A stretch of 64,000 nucleotides of DNA, taken from NCBI RefSeq assembly GCF_003334385.1, contig NZ_QOWN01000010.1; one strand, 5' to 3'. The translations under genes were made by a program, and so were the position numbers. This document shows, one piece after another, positions 12,485 through 51,864 of the stretch (position 1 is the first letter of the stretch; the number at the start of each line of letters is the position of its first letter). The DNA is from Escherichia coli (GTDB lineage: Bacteria > Pseudomonadota > Gammaproteobacteria > Enterobacterales > Enterobacteriaceae). A model generated the notes under the pieces. The model ran no database searches. It saw only the letters and a program-made list of their open reading frames with translations, and had not been told where the DNA came from.

Positions 12485-14665
12485 TTACTCTTTCTCGGAG
12501 TAACTATAACCGTAATAGTTATAGCCGTAACTGTAAGCGGTGCTGGCGCGTTTAATCACACCATTGAGGATAGCGCCTTTAATATTGACGCCTGCCTGTT
12601 CCAGACGCTGCATTGACAAACTCACCTCTTTGGCGGTGTTCAAGCCAAAACGCGCAACCAGCAGGCTGGTGCCAACAGAACGCCCCACGACCGCGGCATC
12701 ACTCACCGCCAGCATCGGCGGCGTATCGACAATCACCAGATCGTAATGGTCGTTCGCCCATTCCAGTAATTGACGCATCCGATCGCGCATCAGCAGTTCA
12801 GACGGGTTAGGTGGCACCTGACCGCGAGTAATCACATCAAAGCCTCCTTTGCCAAAATGCTGGATCACTTTGTTGAGCTCATCTTTACCTGCCAGATATT
12901 CCGACAAGCCATGTTCATTACTCACGGTAAACAGGTTATGCGAATAACCACGGCGTAAGTCGGCATCAATAAATAACACTTTTTGATCGGACTGGGCGAT
13001 CACCGCTGCCAGAGTTGAACTGACAAACGTTTTACCACTGTCTGGCGTCGCACCGGTGATCATTAGAATGTTATTCTCCGTCTCCATCATAGCGAAATGC
13101 AGACTGGTTCGTAGCGCACGTACGGCTTCCACAGCAGAATCCGCCGGGTTATCCACCGCCAGGAAGGGGATATTTTTAGTACGATGGCGCTGCTGATTAG
13201 AAAATAAATTTTTCTTACGCAGACGGGTGCGTTTATCCAGCCACTCGGACATTGGGATAGTGGCATAAACGCTGATGCCGTGCTCTTCCAGTTGTTCCGG
13301 GGCTTCTACACCACGACGCAACATCGCACGCGCCAGCACGGCACCCACAGAAATAAACAGGCCAAGAATAAAACCAAGCACCACGTTCAACGCTTTTTTC
13401 GGTTTCACTGGCTGCGGCTGAGTGACTGCCGGGTCGATAATCCGCACGTTACCAATGGCACTGGATTTCGAAATACTCAACTCCTGCTGGCGGTTAAGTA
13501 ATTGCAGATATACCGCACGGCCCGCTTCTACGTCACGACTTAAACGCAACACTTCCTGTTGGGTGGAAGGCATTGCCGATACCCGCTTATTCAGGCGTTT
13601 GCGTTCTTGCTCCAGCGTCTGGCGTTTTTCCAGCAGCGCACGATAAGTTGGGTGATCTTTCTTATACAGCTGGGAGATCTCTGCCTCGCGGAAGGTCAGC
13701 TCATTGAGTTGATTATCAACGTTCACAATCTGCTCAAGAACGGCTTTGGCTTCCAGGTTAAGGTCAACCGAATCGCGCTGCTGGCGATAAACGTTGAGTT
13801 TTTCTTCCGCTTGGTCCAGCTCGCTGCGCACTTCAGGTAACTGGCGCTGTAAGAATTCAAGGCTTTGTGAATCCTGCGCCGCCTGGCGAGCGATATTCTG
13901 TTGCAAATAGTTGTTAGCGATGCTGTTCAGAATACGAGTAATCAACTGGGGATCATCACCAGTCATGGTAAGTTCCAGCATCCCGCTTTCTTTACTGCGT
14001 TCGCTAACGGTAAAGGTTTCCTGCAATGCGTTAATCGCTTCCAGTTCGGTACGCTGGCTCAGGACAAACTGTGTTCCTGGTTTGGCCTTAATGTCCGCGA
14101 TAGTCAGCGCAACGCCATCTTTTTCCAGACGCTGGCCGACCATACCATTGACGGTGAACTCTTCACCTTCCAGTGTATAGTGGCCGTTTTCCCCAACCGT
14201 GAGTGTCAGTTGCTGATCCTGACCATTCAGTTGTGGAATATGCATCCAGCTGATCGCCAGCTCACCTGGTTTTTCTTTGGTTAATCTCGCCCAGCCGCGA
14301 CCCACAATCGGAAAATACTTCTGCTCAACTATGTCGCGCAGATTCAGTTCAGCAATGGTTTTACCGAGAATCATGCGCGATTGCAGCAGTTGGATCTCCG
14401 GTGCAGACTCGGGCGATGAGTTAGGGATCATATCGCTCAGGCCGCTGAGAATGGCGTTGCCCTGTTTTTGCTCAACCTGGACCAGAGTATCTGCCTGATA
14501 AATTGGTGTGCTTAACAGCGAGTAAGCGACAGCGATCAGCGTGAATAACGCGGTCACGCTGATAATAAACTTACGGTGATCCCATAACTCGCCGACCAGA
14601 CGAAGCAGATCGATCTCATTTTCCTGAGTGCTGCCTGGTGGCGTATTCATATTTTTAGTTGTCAT
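12485..14665 (-). CDS. etk: tyrosine autokinase Etk (Wzc paralogue, group-4 capsule)
   Basis: 726 aa; Walker A GATPDSGKT; C-terminal Tyr cluster YSYGYNYYGYSYSEKE. Confidence 0.95.
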   Translation of the reverse strand: MTTKNMNTPPGSTQENEIDLLRLVGELWDHRKFIISVTALFTLIAVAYSLLSTPIYQADTLVQVEQKQGNAILSGLSDMIPNSSPESAPEIQLLQSRMILGKTIAELNLRDIVEQKYFPIVGRGWARLTKEKPGELAISWMHIPQLNGQDQQLTLTVGENGHYTLEGEEFTVNGMVGQRLEKDGVALTIADIKAKPGTQFVLSQRTELEAINALQETFTVSERSKESGMLELTMTGDDPQLITRILNSIANNYLQQNIARQAAQDSQSLEFLQRQLPEVRSELDQAEEKLNVYRQQRDSVDLNLEAKAVLEQIVNVDNQLNELTFREAEISQLYKKDHPTYRALLEKRQTLEQERKRLNKRVSAMPSTQQEVLRLSRDVEAGRAVYLQLLNRQQELSISKSSAIGNVRIIDPAVTQPQPVKPKKALNVVLGFILGLFISVGAVLARAMLRRGVEAPEQLEEHGISVYATIPMSEWLDKRTRLRKKNLFSNQQRHRTKNIPFLAVDNPADSAVEAVRALRTSLHFAMMETENNILMITGATPDSGKTFVSSTLAAVIAQSDQKVLFIDADLRRGYSHNLFTVSNEHGLSEYLAGKDELNKVIQHFGKGGFDVITRGQVPPNPSELLMRDRMRQLLEWANDHYDLVIVDTPPMLAVSDAAVVGRSVGTSLLVARFGLNTAKEVSLSMQRLEQAGVNIKGAILNGVIKRASTAYSYGYNYYGYSYSEKE

Positions 14666-14684
14666 CGTATTTTATAAACTCAAA

Positions 14685-15131
14685 TTACCGGCTGAGGCGC
14701 TTCGCCCATTCCTGACTGGCGCGCTCCAACATACCGTAGACATGTTCAAATGCGTCCTGACTTTTACGATAGGGATCCGGGATCTCTTTCTGTTCCAGCC
14801 ATTGCCCAAACAGCATTGTCTTCCCGCGGACCTCGGGAGCAATTGCGGTAACCTGAGCAATATGTTCCGACTCCATTGCCAGAATCAGATCGTAATTTCG
14901 TGCCATCTCAGCAGTGAGCTTACGTCCGGCATGTCCTTCAAGAGATACGCCATGATTAGCGGCAACATCTGCCGCTGTCGCATCTGCAGGGTGTTTTACC
15001 AGACCATGAACACCTGCCGATTTGACTTTTACGCCCGGCAGACGTTTACGCAGCAAGCGCTCGCCAATGGGCGAACGGCAAATGTTGCCGGTACAAACCA
15101 CCAGGATTGAGTTAAATTTTAGTTGGGCCAT
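14685..15131 (-). CDS. etp: low-molecular-weight protein-tyrosine phosphatase Etp
   Basis: ORF 14685..15143; start at [21 protein letters not shown] (CX5R P-loop). Confidence 0.93.
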
Positions 15132-16258
15132 GTTTGAATCCACCGTGAAGTCTCTGTCAGGTCATGCACCCCGGAAATCGTCGGTACCAGCAGAGAAATC
15201 ACACGGTTCCAACGAGCCAGCGGCGCGGTAGTGACATAAACAATGTCGTAAGGTTCAAGCTGGAATTCCGTTCCGAGTATCATTGCCGATGCGTCCTTCG
15301 CATTCAGCTGATAAATATTGGCGATTTTGCCATTCTGCTTGTTTTGCGTTGCACGAATAACAAAAATCCCCGTCGCATCAGCGACATCCTGATTCATACC
15401 CTCAGCGTTACCCAGCGCTTCCGCCAGGGTCATACCGCTGCGGTCCATTTTCAGCGTGCTCTGTTTACCCACTTCACCCATCACGAAGACTTTCAGATCA
15501 TCGTTGCGCGGAATAAATAAAATATCGCCCGGGTGCAGCAGTTTGTTCTGGCGCAAGTCGCCACGCTGCATCAGCGCATAGAGGTTCACTTTGGTCTTTA
15601 CGCCATTCTGGGTGAGCACCACGTTGCGCCAGTCTGCATCTGCGGTCAGACCGCCCGCGGCGTTAATCGCATCCATGATGGTCAGAGGAATATTGGTAAT
15701 CGGCTGCTGACCCGATTTGCTGACTTCGCCGGTGACGTACGCTTTTTGCGATCGGAACGCCGCGACGCTGACATCGACTTGCGGGCTTTCAATGACTGAA
15801 TCGAGACGCGCTGTAATCTCGTTGCGTACCTGGGTAAGTGTTTTCCCGGCCACTTTCAGGCGACCAATATAGGGGTAGAAAATCGCACCATCGGCGTTAA
15901 CCCAGTTGCCGGTATCACTGGCGCTACGGTATTGCCCTGCGGGGGTGGTTAGTTCCGGGTGATCCCAGACCGTAACCATCAACACATCACCAATCCCGAT
16001 ACGATATTCATAGTTTGCGATTTGCTGCTCCAGCTCCGGGTTAGCCTGCGACATAATCGGTTTGGCGCGCAACTGATCAATCAATCCTGGCGTGACGGGA
16101 TAGATATTGACCATTTTGTCCAGGTCATACTGATTGTCAGGTAGTTCAATGACATCCTTGTTACTGGTCGATAAATTCTGACCAGGAACAAGGGTACATG
16201 CTGTCAAAGACAGAACAGCCAATGTCAGTACCGAAAACTTAAAAATGTTCTTTTTCAT
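15119..16258 (-). CDS. gfcE: outer-membrane polysaccharide export lipoprotein (Wza paralogue)
   Basis: ORF 15119..16279; start at [21 protein letters not shown] lipobox. Confidence 0.92.
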
Positions 16259-16303
16259 TGGTTTATATTTATCAGTCAATGTAATGTTATGAATTACGTC
16301 AGG

Positions 16304-18400
16304 TTATTGTCCAACCGGTACTTCTCGCTCTGCCGTCATTGGATAGAGCTGGTATTTGCGTGACAGCATTTGTCCACCATCACGCGTCAATGGTGTCCAC
16401 GAAACCACCGCGCGGTTGCGGTTAGGTCCAATGGTCATCAAGTCGAATGGAATCGAGATATAAAAACCTTTACTAAAGCCGCCTTCGCCGTAGTCATCTT
16501 TAGATACGTTACTGATTGCCGCCCATACCCCTACCGCCACGCCGCTGTCAAAGCGTTTGGCGACGTCGATCGTTGCGCCTTTATCTTTTGCCAGATATTG
16601 CCCAACGCTAAGTTTCATCAGTACGCCATTGAGCGTCGGCGGGTTCCAGTAAGCCGTCACGAAACCTGTTGGCGTGGAATAATCGGTGAAACGCATCATG
16701 TTGTCCCAGTCACGTTGCTTCACGTAGTTAACGTCCACACCCAGCGCCCAGCAGGCATCTAGCGGGCGATAAAGCAGCTCGGAACCGACACCGGCGTACA
16801 TCGTTTCCAGATAACCGCCATACACCTGGCCATAGAAACCATTGCCTAAGTCAGCAAAATAGTTCGCCTGCAAGTTGTTGAGATAAACGTCATTGCGAAC
16901 GTAGTCACGGATATGCGTGCGCACGCGGGGCAGGGTAGAGTCCGCGGGCAACAGCGAAGACTTAAACTTGTCGTAGTTGTTGTAAATATTGGTGAAAATA
17001 CCGCCATCAAGCAGCAGGTGGTCGGTAAACCAGTAGCGGGCACTGGACATCAGCCCCAGCTGGAACATATAGAAATCTTCCGGGCCGCCCAGCGACTGTG
17101 AAAGTGTTGGGTTGAAAGAGTAGCTAAAGCGATCTTCACGAATACGGTAGCCCCGACCAAAGGCAGAAAGATCTTCAGCTTCAACACGTTGTTGTTGCAG
17201 TGGCTCTGATTGACCAGGCGCTGTACCTGCCAGCTGTTTGCGCAGGCTGGCTACGTCGGTTTCGGTAGTCACCATCGCCATATGCTCGCGCTTTTGCGTC
17301 ACGCTAATCTTCTCAACGCCTTGCGGCAGGTTATTCACCAGAATCCGGTTGGCACGATCGACCGCTTCACGAGAGTCACGGTATTTGTATTGCTGACCAG
17401 ACATATACAGTGTCTTATCGCGTAGCTGAATTTCTGGCGCGTCAAAGCCCGCGTTATACTTCAGGGCGGTAAGTTGGTTTGCTACCGTGGTGTACTGCAA
17501 TCCTTCAGATTCAGGCGCAGGTTGATATGCCGGTTTTGGCGTATCGCGCAGGGCAGGGCGCAGATCGTTGAAATTGGTCCGTAACGTGAAGCCAAACATC
17601 AACGTGTTACCGCGTTCATAACTCAGGTTGAGATCTGCCCAGCTGGCTGCGCGATAAACTGCGCCGACGTTGAAATGGCTTGCCTGAGGCAGTTTGCCAG
17701 CGAAATCATTCTGGTAATTGTTTCCATCGTATTCGAGTTTCAGACGCAGGGGATTCCACGGCGTTTGATACTCAATGCCGCCAAAGATGGAAGCCGGGCC
17801 ACGAAAGATATCGCTAAAGCTGATATCGCCCGCATCGTGAGACTCTGCGCGATGACAATATTTATCGCTCACCCGGCAAAACGGGTTGGTAATATTGCCC
17901 GCATTACCGGCGTAGCCCCATGCCATCCCGAGGGTGAAATCAAATGGCCCCGCTTGCTTGCTGGCCACCAGATACTCACCGTCAAACAGACCCGTACCAG
18001 CAATATCACGTTTACCAAACGCCACTTGCGGTAGCCAGTAACCTTCTTCCCACAGGCGAAGTTTAAAATCGAATGATTTGTCTTTGTATGACTGATCGCC
18101 GCTGAAATCTTCCCACTGGCTATATTTGCGTGTGCGCACATCCGTATAACGAATGGTGCCTTCCAGCCATGGGAACAGCGCCACGGAGGTGGAGTAGAAC
18201 CGGTATTGATCGTTATCCCGGTAGTTGACGCTGAATTCACCTTCCGGTGCGATGCGCGCATTTGGCATCTGCAACAATCCTGTGCCGCCAAAGTCTGATT
18301 GCGACGAACCCAGCGGATCCGGGTAGGTTAATACTTCAGCATGACAGGCACTGGAGACGGCAATGGCCAGGCAGCTTAAAAGATAAGAATTCTTCTTCAT
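16304..18400 (-). CDS. gfcD: group-4 capsule outer-membrane beta-barrel protein GfcD (YjbH family)
   Basis: 698 aa with signal peptide, recognised sequence. Confidence 0.92.
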
Positions 18401-19146
18401 CAGTCAGGAACACGTTGCGTTAAAACAGACACAATCTGGTCATTTAAATCAGCATATTTTTCGGGCAGTACATGCGCAGAAAAGCCCAACCAAAGCTGGC
18501 TGCCAGGCGGTGGTTCCACATGTCTTTTATTCCACAGGGCAACAGGGGCGACGACAGTCTCACCCTCAGGCGTAATCACCATAACGTTATTCTTGTCCGC
18601 GCCTGCAAGGCGGGGGTGATCTTGCAGATAATCGGTAACGCTACGGCCTGCCTGCCAGGGCAATTGCCCGGCCCCAGAAACCGCACCCAGCAGAGTAATA
18701 GTCACCGGACGCTGTACGGTATAGAGCGTATAGTCCCCGACCAACGGGGGATTGCTGTTCTCATCCACTCGTACAAAATCAGGGTCCAGTTTGACCGGTA
18801 AGCGACCAGTGATATTGAGATTGAGTAACTGCTGGCGCACGGATTTAATCGTTGCCGCCACATCGTCGTCAGCTTCTGCTTCCCAGGAAGCAAGCTGTGC
18901 CATGACATGTTGGTAGTCTTTAAGCGCTTTAGCTTTCGCCGCAGAGTCGGTCAGCAAGGCACCAGGCCACCAGAGGCGATCGCGCAGTTGCGGTTGTGTC
19001 ACCAACTGGACAACATTTTCCACGGGGCCAACGGAAAGTGTCTGTTGTTCGCCAGGCAGATAAATAGTCACCGTTCCTTGCGCAAAGGCATGGGGTGTCA
19101 TTACGTAAAGTACGCTGGCAATGAAATACGACTGTAATTTATTCAT
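18400..19146 (-). CDS. gfcC: group-4 capsule periplasmic protein GfcC
   Basis: 248 aa with signal peptide; overlaps gfcD start. Confidence 0.92.
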
Positions 19147-19787
19147 GGTGCGGGTTTAAGAAACGTCATTTCTACGGGAATAACCCCTGCGCCTAACATT
19201 TGCCGACTTTGACGAACCTGGCCAGTAGCCGAATCGACCCAGAATGTGTTTTGCCACTGTTTTTCTGGCCGCGTGGAAGTCACCTCTTCCTGCCAGACAT
19301 TACACAGCACATTGCGACCCGCAATATTCAGCGTCTCTAATCCAGCAAAGGAAAAAGTAGAACTCAGGGTCGCAGAGCGAAAATGGTTGTCTTCACTCCA
19401 GAGAATATCGCGCGTCCAGCGGCTGCCATCTTTTATTGCCAGCGCGTTACGCAGAGGGTCCTGCCCGGAATTTGTCACTTCCAGCAGATTATTATTAAGT
19501 TTGACGGTTTTTAAAAGACGTCCATTGTGGGTAACCAGCATGGCGTTATCCTGGGATAACCATTTGCTTTGTTCTTGTTCTATATATCCCAGTACCACAA
19601 AGATTCGTTGCCCTTCATTAAGGCGTAAATACATAGTGGAATAAGGCAACGCCTGGATCTGCTGATCCGCTACGGTGATATCCTGATTATCGAAAAGGCT
19701 GGCGCGAAATGTATCGACCATACTTTGCTGGCTGTGCGTACATCCCGCAAGAAATAGTGCGAAAATCGATAAAATAAGAGGGCGCAC
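19143..19787 (-). CDS. gfcB: group-4 capsule lipoprotein GfcB (YjbF family)
   Basis: 214 aa; MRPLILSIFALFLAGC lipobox. Confidence 0.92.
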   Translation of the reverse strand: MRPLILSIFALFLAGCTHSQQSMVDTFRASLFDNQDITVADQQIQALPYSTMYLRLNEGQRIFVVLGYIEQEQSKWLSQDNAMLVTHNGRLLKTVKLNNNLLEVTNSGQDPLRNALAIKDGSRWTRDILWSEDNHFRSATLSSTFSFAGLETLNIAGRNVLCNVWQEEVTSTRPEKQWQNTFWVDSATGQVRQSRQMLGAGVIPVEMTFLKPAP

Positions 19788-19893: not shown

Positions 19894-20199
19894 TTAGCGT
19901 GTAGTGGACGTGGTGGTTGAGGTGTTATGAGAACCGCCATCGCCACTGTCATTTGCTGCAACAACTGCCAACGTCGCCACACCAACAGCCGTTGCCACAC
20001 CGACAACTGTCGCCGTGCCGACAGCGCCAGCAGCCACGCCACCAGTGGTAGTAGCAGTCGTGGTTGCGCCGGTAGTGGTCGTTGTGGTGCCAGTAGTACC
20101 CGTCGTTGCCTCGGTCCCGTTTGTTGCTTCAGGGGCAGCAAACGCAGCTGGCGTCGTCAACATGAAGGCCATAAGGATTGCAGAAAGCTTGTGTTTCAT
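19894..20199 (-). CDS. gfcA: threonine-rich small secreted/membrane protein GfcA
   Basis: ORF 19894..20217; start at MKHKLSAILMAFMLTTPAAFA; long Thr/Gly/Ala/Val low-complexity tract. Confidence 0.85.
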   Translation of the reverse strand: MKHKLSAILMAFMLTTPAAFAAPEATNGTEATTGTTGTTTTTTGATTTATTTGGVAAGAVGTATVVGVATAVGVATLAVVAANDSGDGGSHNTSTTTSTTR

Positions 20200-20640
20200 A
20201 ACTTTTCCTTTATTCATCGCATGGACAATACGTACGCTTGAGATCAGGATTGTCTACTTTGAGTATAACATCCTTGTGAAATCTCCCTTTCCTCATACCG
20301 CTTGCACTATATACTGCGGGTAGGAAAGGCGCGCAGAGGGAAATATAAGATTGTTAACTATCCCCCTCTGGAAATACGACTTGTGAGCATAAGATAAATC
20401 TTAGCAAAATACAAATTAAAGATAAGGAAATTGTTACGAAAGCTATTAATTATTGTTGGTAATATAGTTTCAAGTGGTACTATAACTGGCTGTTAAATGG
20501 CATTTATAACTATTAGGTGCAGAGATATTCGCTTAAATGGATTAGTTTCTTTGTGGAAAAGTAACTGATGTTATAATGTATGATGTTGACTATTGCACTA
20601 TTCCAATAAAACCAGTCAGCTTTAAACAAGCAGCGTCATA

Positions 20641-20853
20641 TTAAGAGAGATAAACATTTGCCGCTGTTGGTCCTCGCAGGCCATTTACGCGGCAAAATTC
20701 CACACGTAATCCTGGTATAAGCACTTCTGCGTCGCGGGGAGTGAATGCGGAAATATGGACCTGAACTTCTTTACGACCGTCGGAGGGGATAATGAATCCT
20801 TTGCCGCTTTTGCGATCAAAGGTTTTGACAATTCCTGTCATTTTACGGGACAA
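20641..20853 (-). CDS. cspH: cold-shock-like protein CspH
   Basis: 70 aa cold-shock domain, [23 protein letters not shown]. Confidence 0.93.
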
Positions 20854-21138
20854 ACAAATTCCTTACTGAAAATACTGCGCTGCACTATACGGGGTTAATA
20901 AAATAAAGCCAGCGATATTTAAGACCGCCGGACGGCTAAAATAAAATTTGCTTAATCTCAATTATCATGCGTTAATAGCTGCGTCGGTTTGAAAGACAGA
21001 CAGCATACAAAGTAGTTTACTAAAGCAGTTCTCATTATCAGGCATTATCCCCTTCTTTTGAGTCTCTCTCCTGAACACTAAGTAGTTTCTGTATTAAAGC
21101 CCTGTTTGCCGAAAGGCCCAAAATGAAGGAAGTAAAAT

Positions 21139-21351
21139 ATGTCTAATAAAATGACTGGTTTAGTAAAATGGTTTAACGCAGATAAAGGTTTTGGCTTTAT
21201 CACTCCTGATGATGGCAGCAAAGACGTTTTCGTCCATTTCACCGCCATCCAGAGCAATGAATTCCGCACGCTGAACGAAAATCAGAAAGTTGAATTTTCT
21301 ATTGAGCAGGGGCAACGTGGCCCCGCGGCAGCGAACGTTGTTACGCTCTAA
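21139..21351 (+). CDS. cspG: cold-shock protein CspG
   Basis: 70 aa; [24 protein letters not shown]1 motif. Confidence 0.95.
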
Positions 21352-21361
21352 GGTTGCCATT

Positions 21362-21550
21362 ATTACTCAACATCTCCATTTCCGCTGTCCATGTTGTCAT
21401 GGTTCACAGTACCGCACATCGGCATTCGATGTGACGGAGCGAAACCCTTTGGGCGCTAAGTGTATTTTTTGTAAATCGACGATGATCACCTTTGATAACG
21501 TCGCGCTGCAAATACGCACTGACCATGCGCCGCTGGATTTCACAAAATAA
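21362..21550 (+). CDS. ymcF: small Cys-rich (CxCC...CxxC) zinc-ribbon-like protein; start codon uncertain, possibly non-ATG
   Basis: Conserved frame ..ITQHLHFRCPCCHGSQYRTSAFDVTERNPLGAKCIFCKST..; the only in-frame ATG lies inside cspG in another frame. Confidence 0.5.
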   Translation: MTQHLHFRCPCCHGSQYRTSAFDVTERNPLGAKCIFCKSTMITFDNVALQIRTDHAPLDFTK

Positions 21551-51033: not shown

Positions 51034-51864
51034 ATGTTTGTTCCGTTTCTCATTATGTTGCGCGAAGGACTTGAAGCCGCGCTGATTGTCAGTTTGATTG
51101 CCAGCTATCTTAAGCGTACCCAGCGAGGCCGATGGATTGGTGTGATGTGGATTGGCGTGTTGCTTGCCGCTGCGTTGTGCCTGGGCTTGGGTATCTTCAT
51201 TAACGAAACCACCGGCGAATTTCCGCAAAAAGAACAGGAACTGTTTGAAGGTATCGTGGCGGTGATCGCCGTGGTGATCCTTACCTGGATGGTTTTCTGG
51301 ATGCGCAAAGTGTCGCGCAACGTCAAAGTGCAACTGGAACAGGCAGTCGATAGCGCATTGCAGCGTGGAAATCATCATGGCTGGGCGCTGGTGATGATGG
51401 TCTTTTTTGCCGTTGCAAGGGAAGGGCTGGAGTCGGTCTTTTTCCTGCTGGCGGCATTTCAACAAGATGTCGGGATCTGGCCGCCGCTGGGTGCAATGCT
51501 CGGTCTTGCTACTGCCGTGGTGCTAGGCTTCCTGCTCTACTGGGGCGGTATTCGCCTCAATCTTGGTGCATTTTTTAAATGGACCAGCCTGTTTATTCTC
51601 TTCGTCGCCGCAGGGCTGGCAGCTGGTGCCATTCGCGCATTTCATGAAGCCGGATTGTGGAACCACTTTCAGGAAATCGCCTTCGATATGAGTGCGGTGC
51701 TCTCAACTCACTCGCTGTTTGGCACGCTGATGGAAGGGATTTTTGGCTATCAGGAAGCGCCGAGCGTCAGCGAAGTCGCCGTCTGGTTTATTTATCTCAT
51801 CCCGGCGCTGGTGGCATTTGCTCTGCCACCACGCGCAGGGGCGACAGCGTCTCGCTCCGCGTAA
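51034..51864 (+). CDS. efeU: ferrous iron permease EfeU (Ftr1 family), intact frame
   Basis: ORF 51025..51864 uninterrupted; start at MFVPFLIMLREGLEAALIV; two REGLE motifs. Confidence 0.9.
   Translation: MFVPFLIMLREGLEAALIVSLIASYLKRTQRGRWIGVMWIGVLLAAALCLGLGIFINETTGEFPQKEQELFEGIVAVIAVVILTWMVFWMRKVSRNVKVQLEQAVDSALQRGNHHGWALVMMVFFAVAREGLESVFFLLAAFQQDVGIWPPLGAMLGLATAVVLGFLLYWGGIRLNLGAFFKWTSLFILFVAAGLAAGAIRAFHEAGLWNHFQEIAFDMSAVLSTHSLFGTLMEGIFGYQEAPSVSEVAVWFIYLIPALVAFALPPRAGATASRSA

What the first reader, a model, noticed from the sequence alone, without database searches (positions are those of the whole stretch)
20200..20640. No IS1 between gfcA and cspH: the gfc capsule operon promoter region appears uninterrupted
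From memory, K-12 MG1655 carries an IS1 copy between gfcA and cspH that silences the group-4 capsule operon. Here the spacer is only about 440 bp of AT-rich DNA with no transposase ORF or IS1 ends, and gfcABCDE-etp-etk are all intact. The operon may therefore be expressible in this strain.
Basis: partly seen in the sequence, partly recalled or inferred. Interest (0 to 1): 0.35.

Follow-up and report, generated by a model that had tools for sequence, protein, structure and literature searches.

The report
Uninterrupted gfc capsule-operon promoter spacer
This E. coli, a very close relative of lab strain K-12, has the normal unbroken DNA between cspH and the group 4 capsule operon where K-12 carries an IS1 insertion; this is the usual state of the species and is already documented, so the finding is correct but ordinary.

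Summary
Window 20200-20640 is a 441-bp, 35% GC spacer between gfcA (19894-20199, -) and cspH (20641-20853, -). It holds no IS1 sequence.

The window is collinear with MG1655 1,029,546-1,094,321. It differs by 14 substitutions, one 1-bp indel, and the absence of the 768-bp IS1D. MG1655 has IS1D 33 bp upstream of the gfcA ATG, flanked by a duplicated GACAATACG. The window has one copy of that 9-mer, at 20224-20232, so this is a clean empty site.

All seven Gfc/Etp/Etk proteins are identical to MG1655's and 96-100% identical to those of EPEC E2348/69.

The uninterrupted state is the norm. Of 5,426 complete E. coli genomes, 3,195 are intact at this site. 416 carry the K-12 junction, and nearly all of those sampled are K-12 lab derivatives. 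The literature already states that IS1 sits in this promoter in K-12 but not in pathogenic strains.

"Expressible" is plausible but cannot be shown from sequence. EHEC has an unbroken spacer yet 30-fold less gfcA mRNA than EPEC, and the capsule also needs an O-antigen cluster that lies outside the window.

One side observation: every broken spacer I examined in non-K-12 isolates carries an IS element (seven isolates, at least six positions, IS1 or IS5 family).

The parts
20200..20640 (-). cspH-gfcA intergenic spacer, 441 bp, 35% GC. It is the uninterrupted regulatory and leader region of the gfc (group 4 capsule) operon.
   Evidence: It equals the MG1655 spacer minus IS1D and one target copy, with 1 SNP.
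20224..20232 (.). Empty IS1D target site: a single copy of GACAATACG, which is duplicated on either side of IS1D in K-12.
   Evidence: the alignment blocks overlap by exactly these 9 bp; the duplication is read directly in L002. (same site occupied in BM28 and ETEC1730).
19894..20199 (-). gfcA (ymcD), 101 aa, threonine-rich inner membrane protein; first gene of the operon.
   Evidence: identical to MG1655 GfcA.
12485..19787 (-). The other six operon genes, all intact: gfcB 19143-19787, gfcC 18400-19146, gfcD 16304-18400, gfcE 15119-16258, etp 14685-15131, etk 12485-14665.
   Evidence: No internal stops; proteins identical to MG1655; 96-100% identical residues to EPEC E2348/69.
20641..20853 (-). 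cspH, the upstream neighbour, in the same orientation as gfcA.
20262..20270 (-). Candidate extended -10 element TGTTATACT. It opens a block that is nearly invariant as far as the gfcA ATG. Prediction only.
   Evidence: best extended -10 in the spacer. (identical in all E. coli alleles examined, in E. albertii and in Escherichia sp. MOD1-EC7003).
20386..20414 (-). Alternative candidate sigma-70 promoter TTGTAT-17-TATGCT. Prediction only.
   Evidence: top-scoring -35/-10 pair. (conserved; TATCCT in E. albertii). (its -10 is removed by the 23-bp deletion, window 20379-20401, in BL21(DE3)).
20335..20369 (-). Conserved inverted repeat or hairpin, CAGAGGGGGAUA...UAUUUCCCUCUG, inside the structured gfcA-proximal half of the spacer.
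   Evidence: 191 nt folds at -57.4 kcal/mol, z = -4.3, 0 of 200 shuffles as stable. (stem kept in 7 of 7 sequences, loop variable in E. albertii; only one compensatory pair in the whole fold).

Best explanation
Window 20200-20640 is the ordinary, ancestral, uninterrupted cspH-gfcA intergenic region of a phylogroup-A E. coli that is very closely related to K-12 but is not K-12. It carries the native promoter and 5' leader of the seven-gene group 4 (O-antigen) capsule export operon gfcABCDE-etp-etk.

In the K-12 lineage a 768-bp IS1 (IS1D) transposed into GACAATACG (window 20224-20232), 33 bp upstream of the gfcA ATG. That position is downstream of both candidate promoters, so the insertion uncouples the operon from its promoter. 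In this strain that event has not happened, so transcription starting in the spacer can run into gfcA and onward.

Shown here:
- The empty site and the target duplication in K-12.
- Intact genes.
- Identity of the spacer architecture with that of capsule-producing EPEC.
- The empty site being the majority state in the species.

Inferred:
- Where the promoter lies.
- That the operon is actually transcribed in this strain.
- That a capsule forms. This also needs a Wzy-dependent O-antigen cluster and permissive regulation.
For: Alignment with MG1655:
- 64 kb are collinear with MG1655 at 99.97-99.99% identity. The only structural difference near gfc is IS1D plus one 9-bp target copy.
- MG1655 annotates IS1D between b0987 and b0989.

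Genes and spacer:
- All seven proteins are identical to K-12's and 96-100% identical to EPEC E2348/69's.
- The spacer aligns end to end with EPEC and O157:H7. The ~100 bp next to gfcA are almost invariant, and remain so in E. albertii and Escherichia sp. MOD1-EC7003.

Population, of 5,426 complete genomes:
- 3,195 of the 3,615 genomes that have the site are intact there.
- 416 carry the K-12 junction. At a stricter threshold 388 do, and a spread sample of 60 is almost entirely K-12 lab derivatives.

Literature:
- IS1 lies in the ymc/gfc promoter of K-12 but not of pathogenic strains (PMC2516531; PMC12428005).
- The whole spacer was used as 'gfcA and its promoter' in EPEC (PMC3853201).
- The proximal 294 bp were used as the operon's 'own promoter' in S. 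sonnei (PMC4368438).
Against: - No transcription start site for gfcA could be found in the literature held, and the generic promoter scan found no strong sigma-70 site on the gfc strand. My own scoring gives only weak candidates.
- Expression differs 30-fold between EPEC and EHEC although both have unbroken spacers (PMC3853201), so absence of IS1 does not predict expression.
- K-12 still expresses etk under some conditions (PMC2516531), and an RpoD-binding site facing gfcA was reported at the gfcA/insA4 junction (PMC3946193). IS1 may therefore not be a complete block.
- The O-antigen cluster and the regulators lie outside the window.
Confidence: 0.9

Rival explanations
1. The spacer is intact but the operon is nevertheless silent or phenotypically irrelevant in this strain, through repression of the AT-rich promoter region, strain-specific regulation, or lack of a functional O-antigen. 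On this reading the absence of IS1 makes no practical difference.
For: EHEC, with an unbroken spacer, has about 30-fold less gfcA mRNA than EPEC and showed no visible capsule in the conditions tested (PMC3853201). The spacer core is 29% GC, which from general knowledge is typical of H-NS-silenced DNA. The O-antigen genes cannot be seen in the window.
Against: S. sonnei matches the window at the published primer sites and makes a G4C; the operon cloned with a fragment starting at the position equivalent to window 20493 restored the capsule in a deletion mutant (PMC4368438). All structural genes are intact.
Confidence: 0.3
2. The window comes from a K-12 derivative from which IS1D was removed, either by precise excision or by engineering as in IS-free reduced-genome strains, rather than from a lineage that never had it.
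For: The site is a perfectly clean empty site with a single target copy, and the flanks are 99.98% identical to MG1655.
Against: There are 14 substitutions in 64 kb relative to MG1655, far more than separate K-12 derivatives from one another. efeU is intact, whereas K-12 has a frameshift. The IS3D junction is still present at 63924-64000, so this is not an IS-cleaned strain. About 3,195 other genomes have the same empty site.
Confidence: 0.02
3. IS1D in K-12 is not a silencer at all: an outward-reading promoter in the IS1 left end drives the operon. On this reading the window's empty site would mean different regulation, not more expression.
For: Genomic SELEX found an RpoD holoenzyme site between gfcA and insA4, with a predicted promoter TGGAGA-18-TACACT directed at gfcA (PMC3946193). 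TACACT lies within the reverse complement of the IS1 left end (read from the IS1D sequence printed). etk-dependent phenotypes exist in K-12, and the authors speculate about a positive effect of IS1 (PMC2516531).
Against: The same paper reports that the ymc operon is thought not to be expressed in K-12 grown in LB, only in pathogenic strains. IS1 insertions are generally strongly polar (established knowledge). No direct measurement was found.
Confidence: 0.1

Closest known systems
E. coli K-12 MG1655 gfc locus (b0981-b0987) with IS1D (insA4/insB4) between gfcA and cspH
   Same: Same gene order appA-etk-etp-gfcEDCBA-cspH-cspG, identical proteins, and 99.98% identical DNA over 64 kb.
   Different: The window lacks the 768-bp IS1D and the second copy of GACAATACG. 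It has G instead of T at 20595. Elsewhere in the window efeU is intact.
Group 4 capsule (gfc/g4c) operon of EPEC O127:H6 E2348/69 and of Shigella sonnei, in which capsule production has been shown experimentally
   Same: Same seven genes. The same uninterrupted 441-bp spacer architecture in EPEC. An almost invariant gfcA-proximal ~100 bp. The published promoter-containing fragments map onto the spacer.
   Different: The cspH-proximal half of the spacer diverges between alleles, down to about 90-93% identity. Expression and capsule formation in the window's strain are untested, and its O-antigen is unknown.
IS insertions in AT-rich regulatory regions of E. coli operons (bgl, flhDC), cited from general knowledge; PMC2516531 makes the bgl comparison for this locus
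   Same: The same kind of target, AT-rich intergenic regulatory DNA, and the same elements (IS1, IS5 family) recur in this spacer in other isolates.
   Different: In bgl and flhDC the insertions activate the operon. Here the K-12 insertion lies between the candidate promoters and the gene and is regarded as inactivating. The effect of the more distal insertions is unknown. The window itself has no insertion.

Membership tests
Group 4 capsule (gfc/g4c) export operon of E. coli/Shigella | Seven co-oriented genes gfcA-gfcB-gfcC-gfcD-gfcE-etp-etk, all with open reading frames | tested here: met
   101, 214, 248, 698, 379, 148 and 726 aa, no internal stops, identical to MG1655, and 96-100% identical to EPEC.
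Group 4 capsule (gfc/g4c) export operon of E. coli/Shigella | Chromosomal position between appA and cspH | tested here: met
   collinear with MG1655 appA-etk...gfcA-cspH-cspG.
Group 4 capsule (gfc/g4c) export operon of E. coli/Shigella | Uninterrupted upstream region equivalent to the fragments cloned as the operon's own promoter | tested here: met
   Primer gfcA5 maps to 20640 and primer COMPLcps.3'.R maps to 20493-20472.
Group 4 capsule (gfc/g4c) export operon of E. coli/Shigella | Transcription of the operon and formation of an O-antigen capsule; this needs a Wzy-dependent O-antigen cluster | not testable with these tools
   The rfb/O-antigen region lies outside the 64-kb window, and no expression data exist for this strain.
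IS1 insertion at the gfc promoter (K-12 state) | 768-bp IS1 with terminal inverted repeats and insA/insB | tested here: not met
   no IS1 ends and no IS1 similarity anywhere in the window.
IS1 insertion at the gfc promoter (K-12 state) | 9-bp target duplication GACAATACG | tested here: not met
   a single copy at 20224-20232.
E. coli K-12 lineage | K-12-specific lesions inside this window: gfc::IS1D and the efeU frameshift | tested here: not met
   both are absent, and there are 14 substitutions in 64 kb. The IS3D junction, however, is shared.

The most novel reading that the evidence does not exclude
The cspH-gfcA spacer may be a recurrent natural target of IS insertion that works as a heritable switch for the O-antigen capsule. 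K-12's IS1D would then be one instance of a general phenomenon rather than a lab-strain oddity.

What I saw:
- In the eight interrupted genomes I examined, insertions map to at least six positions: IS1 variants at 20224-20232, 20327/8-20336, 20393-20401 and 20486-20494, ISKpn26 at about 20400, and an IS1-bounded deletion of 19914-20397.
- The IS1 variants range from 90.9% to 100% identity to IS1D, which argues for independent events.
- 215 of 3,718 genomes have the distal spacer broken.

Insertions downstream of the promoter would switch the capsule off. Distal ones in the 29% GC core might instead relieve silencing, as IS insertions do at bgl and flhDC.
Probability: 0.3. Interest if true: 0.4.

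Novelty: already known. Interest (0 to 1): 0.1.

Why it matters
For this window it matters little. It shows that the strain keeps the wild-type arrangement of the group 4 capsule operon, which K-12 lost, so K-12-based expectations of a 'cryptic' gfc/etk locus should not be carried over to it.

Together with the intact efeU, it marks the strain as a natural near-relative of K-12 that has the ancestral state at two K-12 lesions. Such a strain could serve as an isogenic-like background for measuring what IS1D actually does to gfc and etk expression, a question the literature leaves open (PMC2516531).

Tried and rejected
1. A 28-codon upstream ORF (20296-20210, - strand, MRKGRFHKDVILKVDNPDLKRTYCPCDE) ends 10 nt before the gfcA ATG and is cut by IS1D in K-12. 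Within E. coli its two variable sites are synonymous. In Escherichia sp. MOD1-EC7003, however, the ATG is lost and an in-frame TGA appears. I rejected it as a conserved coding ORF. The conservation here is at the nucleotide level.

2. Sequestration of the gfcA Shine-Dalgarno and AUG by the 5' end of a 190-nt leader appeared in one fold. The pairing partner changes with the chosen 5' and 3' boundaries, so I make no claim.

3. Covariation support for the leader fold is too thin: 1 compensatory pair out of 60, because the sequences are nearly invariant.

4. The generic promoter scan found no site on the gfc strand. My own position-weight scoring gave only weak candidates.

5. The primary papers, Peleg et al. 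2005 (PMC1196049) and Shifrin et al. 2008 (PMC2447026), are not held. The IS1 statement is therefore cited from papers that report it. No paper held gives a gfcA transcription start site, and none links the gfc operon to H-NS.

6. The source strain could not be identified. No complete RefSeq E. coli genome is identical over 25 kb. The best, SCU-104, scores 46,139 bits, which I estimate is about 5 mismatches short of a perfect match.

7. Rfam finds nothing in the spacer. The only hit is the cspA thermoregulator upstream of cspG.

8. The genome-contig scan for the gfcA N-terminus returned only two other Escherichia species, which limits phylogenetic footprinting.

Full report
**What is at the coordinates.** The gfcA start codon ends at 20199 and the cspH stop begins at 20641, both on the - strand. 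Its GC content is 35.1% against 51.0% for the window, with a 29% GC core at 20380-20600. No ORF in it resembles a transposase; the ORFs of 50 aa or more that touch it are gfcA and two antisense frames over gfcA. The IS1 terminal 23-mer has no match in the window at up to three mismatches. A word-size-7 blastn of the whole of IS1D against the 64 kb gives only chance matches of 28 bp or less.

**Comparison with K-12.** The RefSeq record of MG1655 annotates IS1D (insA4/insB4) at 1049778-1050545, between gfcA (b0987) and cspH (b0989). The window aligns with MG1655 1,029,546-1,094,321 in two blocks that overlap by exactly 9 bp, at window 20224-20232. In MG1655 the 9-mer GACAATACG occurs on both sides of IS1D. 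In the window it occurs once. This is the signature of a site that IS1 has never entered, or has left precisely. IS1D lies 33 bp upstream of the gfcA ATG. Apart from IS1D, the spacer differs from MG1655 at one base (20595, G versus T), and the whole 64 kb differs by 14 substitutions and one 1-bp indel.

**The operon.** With the MG1655 gene boundaries, etk, etp, gfcE, gfcD, gfcC, gfcB and gfcA are all open, of canonical length, and identical in protein sequence to MG1655. They share 96-100% of residues with the proteins of EPEC E2348/69, the strain in which the capsule function was defined.

**Is the empty site unusual?** It is not. The counts below are out of 5,426 complete E. coli genomes.

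| State | Genomes |
|---|---|
| Spacer sequence present | 3,718 |
| K-12 target region present | 3,615 |
| Target region uninterrupted | 3,195 |
| Exact gfcA\|IS1 junction of K-12 | 416 |
| Same junction at a stricter threshold | 388 |
| gfc operon absent, with appA abutting cspH | about 1,700 |

A spread sample of 60 junction carriers is almost entirely K-12 laboratory derivatives, with a few apparently natural isolates such as ETEC1703, ABW_A19 and PJ-T13. ETEC1730 also has IS1 at this site.

The literature already records the difference. [quoted passage not shown] The finding is therefore true, but it describes the wild-type state and is already known.

**What strain is this?** It is not K-12. 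It has 14 substitutions in 64 kb. Its efeU is intact, at 276 codons (51034-51864), where K-12 has a frameshift that stops at codon 36. Yet its last 77 bases are the start of IS3 at the same junction as MG1655's IS3D. The best matches over 25 kb are phylogroup-A strains such as SCU-104, E. coli C, ETEC H10407, WG5 and NCTC86, and none is identical. It is a natural near-relative of K-12 that keeps the ancestral state at two K-12 lesions. An IS-cleaned K-12 derivative is excluded.

**How the region probably works.** Two published fragments bracket the promoter:
- The EPEC 'gfcA and its promoter' fragment was amplified with a primer that starts at the position equivalent to window 20640, so it spans the whole spacer (PMC3853201).
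- The S. sonnei operon 'with its own promoter' was amplified with a primer equivalent to 20493-20472, and it restored the capsule in a deletion mutant (PMC4368438).

Alignment of the window with EPEC, O157:H7, BL21 and two divergent E. coli alleles gives further clues, as does alignment with E. albertii and Escherichia sp. MOD1-EC7003. The cspH-proximal half is variable. Two blocks are strongly conserved:
- 20414-20335 holds a candidate TTGTAT-17-TATGCT promoter and a conserved hairpin at 20369-20335.
- The last ~75 bp before the ATG open with an extended -10-like TGTTATACT (20270-20262) and are almost invariant even in E. albertii.

Both promoter candidates are weak by consensus scoring, and I found no mapped start site. 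Either candidate lies upstream of the K-12 insertion point, so IS1D separates the gene from whichever one is used. That step is inference.

The 191 nt next to gfcA fold much more stably than shuffled controls: -57.4 kcal/mol, z = -4.3, 0 of 200 shuffles as stable. The fold is kept in seven Escherichia sequences. There is almost no covariation, and the predicted pairing of the ribosome-binding site depends on the chosen boundaries. A structured leader is therefore only a possibility.

**Limits on 'expressible'.**
- EHEC O157:H7 has an unbroken spacer but about 30-fold less gfcA mRNA than EPEC, and showed no visible capsule in N-minimal medium (PMC3853201).
- K-12 does show etk-dependent phenotypes despite IS1 (PMC2516531).
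- Genomic SELEX reported an RpoD site facing gfcA at the gfcA/insA4 junction (PMC3946193).
- The capsule polymer is O-antigen, and its genes are outside the window.

Absence of IS1 removes one known obstacle but predicts neither transcription level nor capsule.

**Side observation.** Eight interrupted genomes were mapped onto window coordinates.

| Strain | Element | Identity to IS1D | Position in window | Orientation |
|---|---|---|---|---|
| K-12 BM28 | IS1D | 100% | 20224-20232 | + |
| ETEC1730 | IS1 | 99.5% | 20224-20232 | + |
| G5 | IS1A-like | 98.6% | 20328-20336 | + |
| PSJ-36 | divergent IS1 | 94.5% | 20327-20336 | + |
| E272 | IS1F-like | 90.9% | 20393-20401 | + |
| SCPM-O-B-9504 | ISKpn26 (IS5 family), plus IS1 truncating gfcB | not applicable | about 20400-20404 | not determined |
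| PK8217 | IS1A | 99.2% | 20486-20494 | - |
| 98223 | IS1A bounding a deletion | 98.8% | 19914-20397 deleted | + |

In all, 215 of 3,718 genomes have the distal spacer non-contiguous. Every interrupted spacer I looked at contains an IS element. Whether this reflects IS1's known taste for AT-rich DNA or selection on capsule expression cannot be decided here.

**Verdict.** The feature is the normal, already documented state of the locus. Interest is low.

Noticed in passing
window 20200-20640, mapped from loci L001 and L005-L011: The cspH-gfcA spacer is hit repeatedly by IS elements in other E. coli genomes. IS1 variants sit at 20224-20232, 20327/8-20336, 20393-20401 and 20486-20494. ISKpn26 sits at about 20400. 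An IS1-bounded deletion removes 19914-20397. In 215 of 3,718 genomes the distal spacer is non-contiguous. Five of the six simple IS1 insertions have the same orientation.
   Followed up: partly
window 51034-51864 (+): efeU is an intact 276-codon ORF. Relative to MG1655 there is an extra G at 51140, so the frameshift that makes efeU a pseudogene in K-12 is absent. The EfeUOB iron transporter may therefore be functional in this strain.
   Followed up: partly
window 63924-64000: The last 77 bases are the start of an IS3 element at exactly the junction of MG1655's IS3D, next to dgcT/ymdE. The strain shares this IS insertion with K-12 although it lacks IS1D.
   Followed up: partly
window 20190-20380 (- strand): The gfcA-proximal half of the spacer folds unusually stably as RNA (-57.4 kcal/mol, z = -4.3). 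It contains a conserved hairpin at 20335-20369 and is nearly invariant across Escherichia species, more so than the 3' end of cspH. It may be a structured leader or a set of regulator-binding palindromes. There is no covariation to prove it.
   Followed up: partly
window 20210-20296 (- strand): A 28-codon upstream ORF ends 10 nt before the gfcA ATG and is interrupted by IS1D in K-12. It is not conserved as a reading frame in Escherichia sp. MOD1-EC7003, where the ATG is lost and an in-frame stop appears, so it is probably not coding.
   Followed up: yes
L015 (BL21(DE3)) versus window 20379-20401: B strains carry a 23-bp deletion in the spacer. It removes the TATGCT -10 of one candidate gfc promoter. 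Their spacer allele is about 94% identical to the window's.
   Followed up: no
window 20640/20641; one search hits H21-H29: About 1,700 of 5,426 complete E. coli genomes lack the whole gfc operon and spacer. In them appA directly abuts cspH, and the breakpoint falls at the cspH stop codon.
   Followed up: no
one search hits H111 and H112 (E. coli B strains C3029 and C2566): Two commercial 'B' expression strains carry the exact K-12 gfcA|IS1D junction, whereas BL21(DE3) has the B-type spacer. This suggests K-12 DNA was introduced into this region during strain construction, possibly with a nearby marker such as sulA11. That last point is from memory.
   Followed up: no
window 20983-21405 (+): There is an Rfam cspA thermoregulator match (159 bits, E = 4e-43) covering the 5' UTR and start of cspG, as expected for a cold-shock gene.
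   Followed up: no
window 27755: This base is A where MG1655 has G, 7 nt upstream of the torC start codon. It changes CAGGGG to CAGGAG, a better Shine-Dalgarno match in this strain.
   Followed up: no
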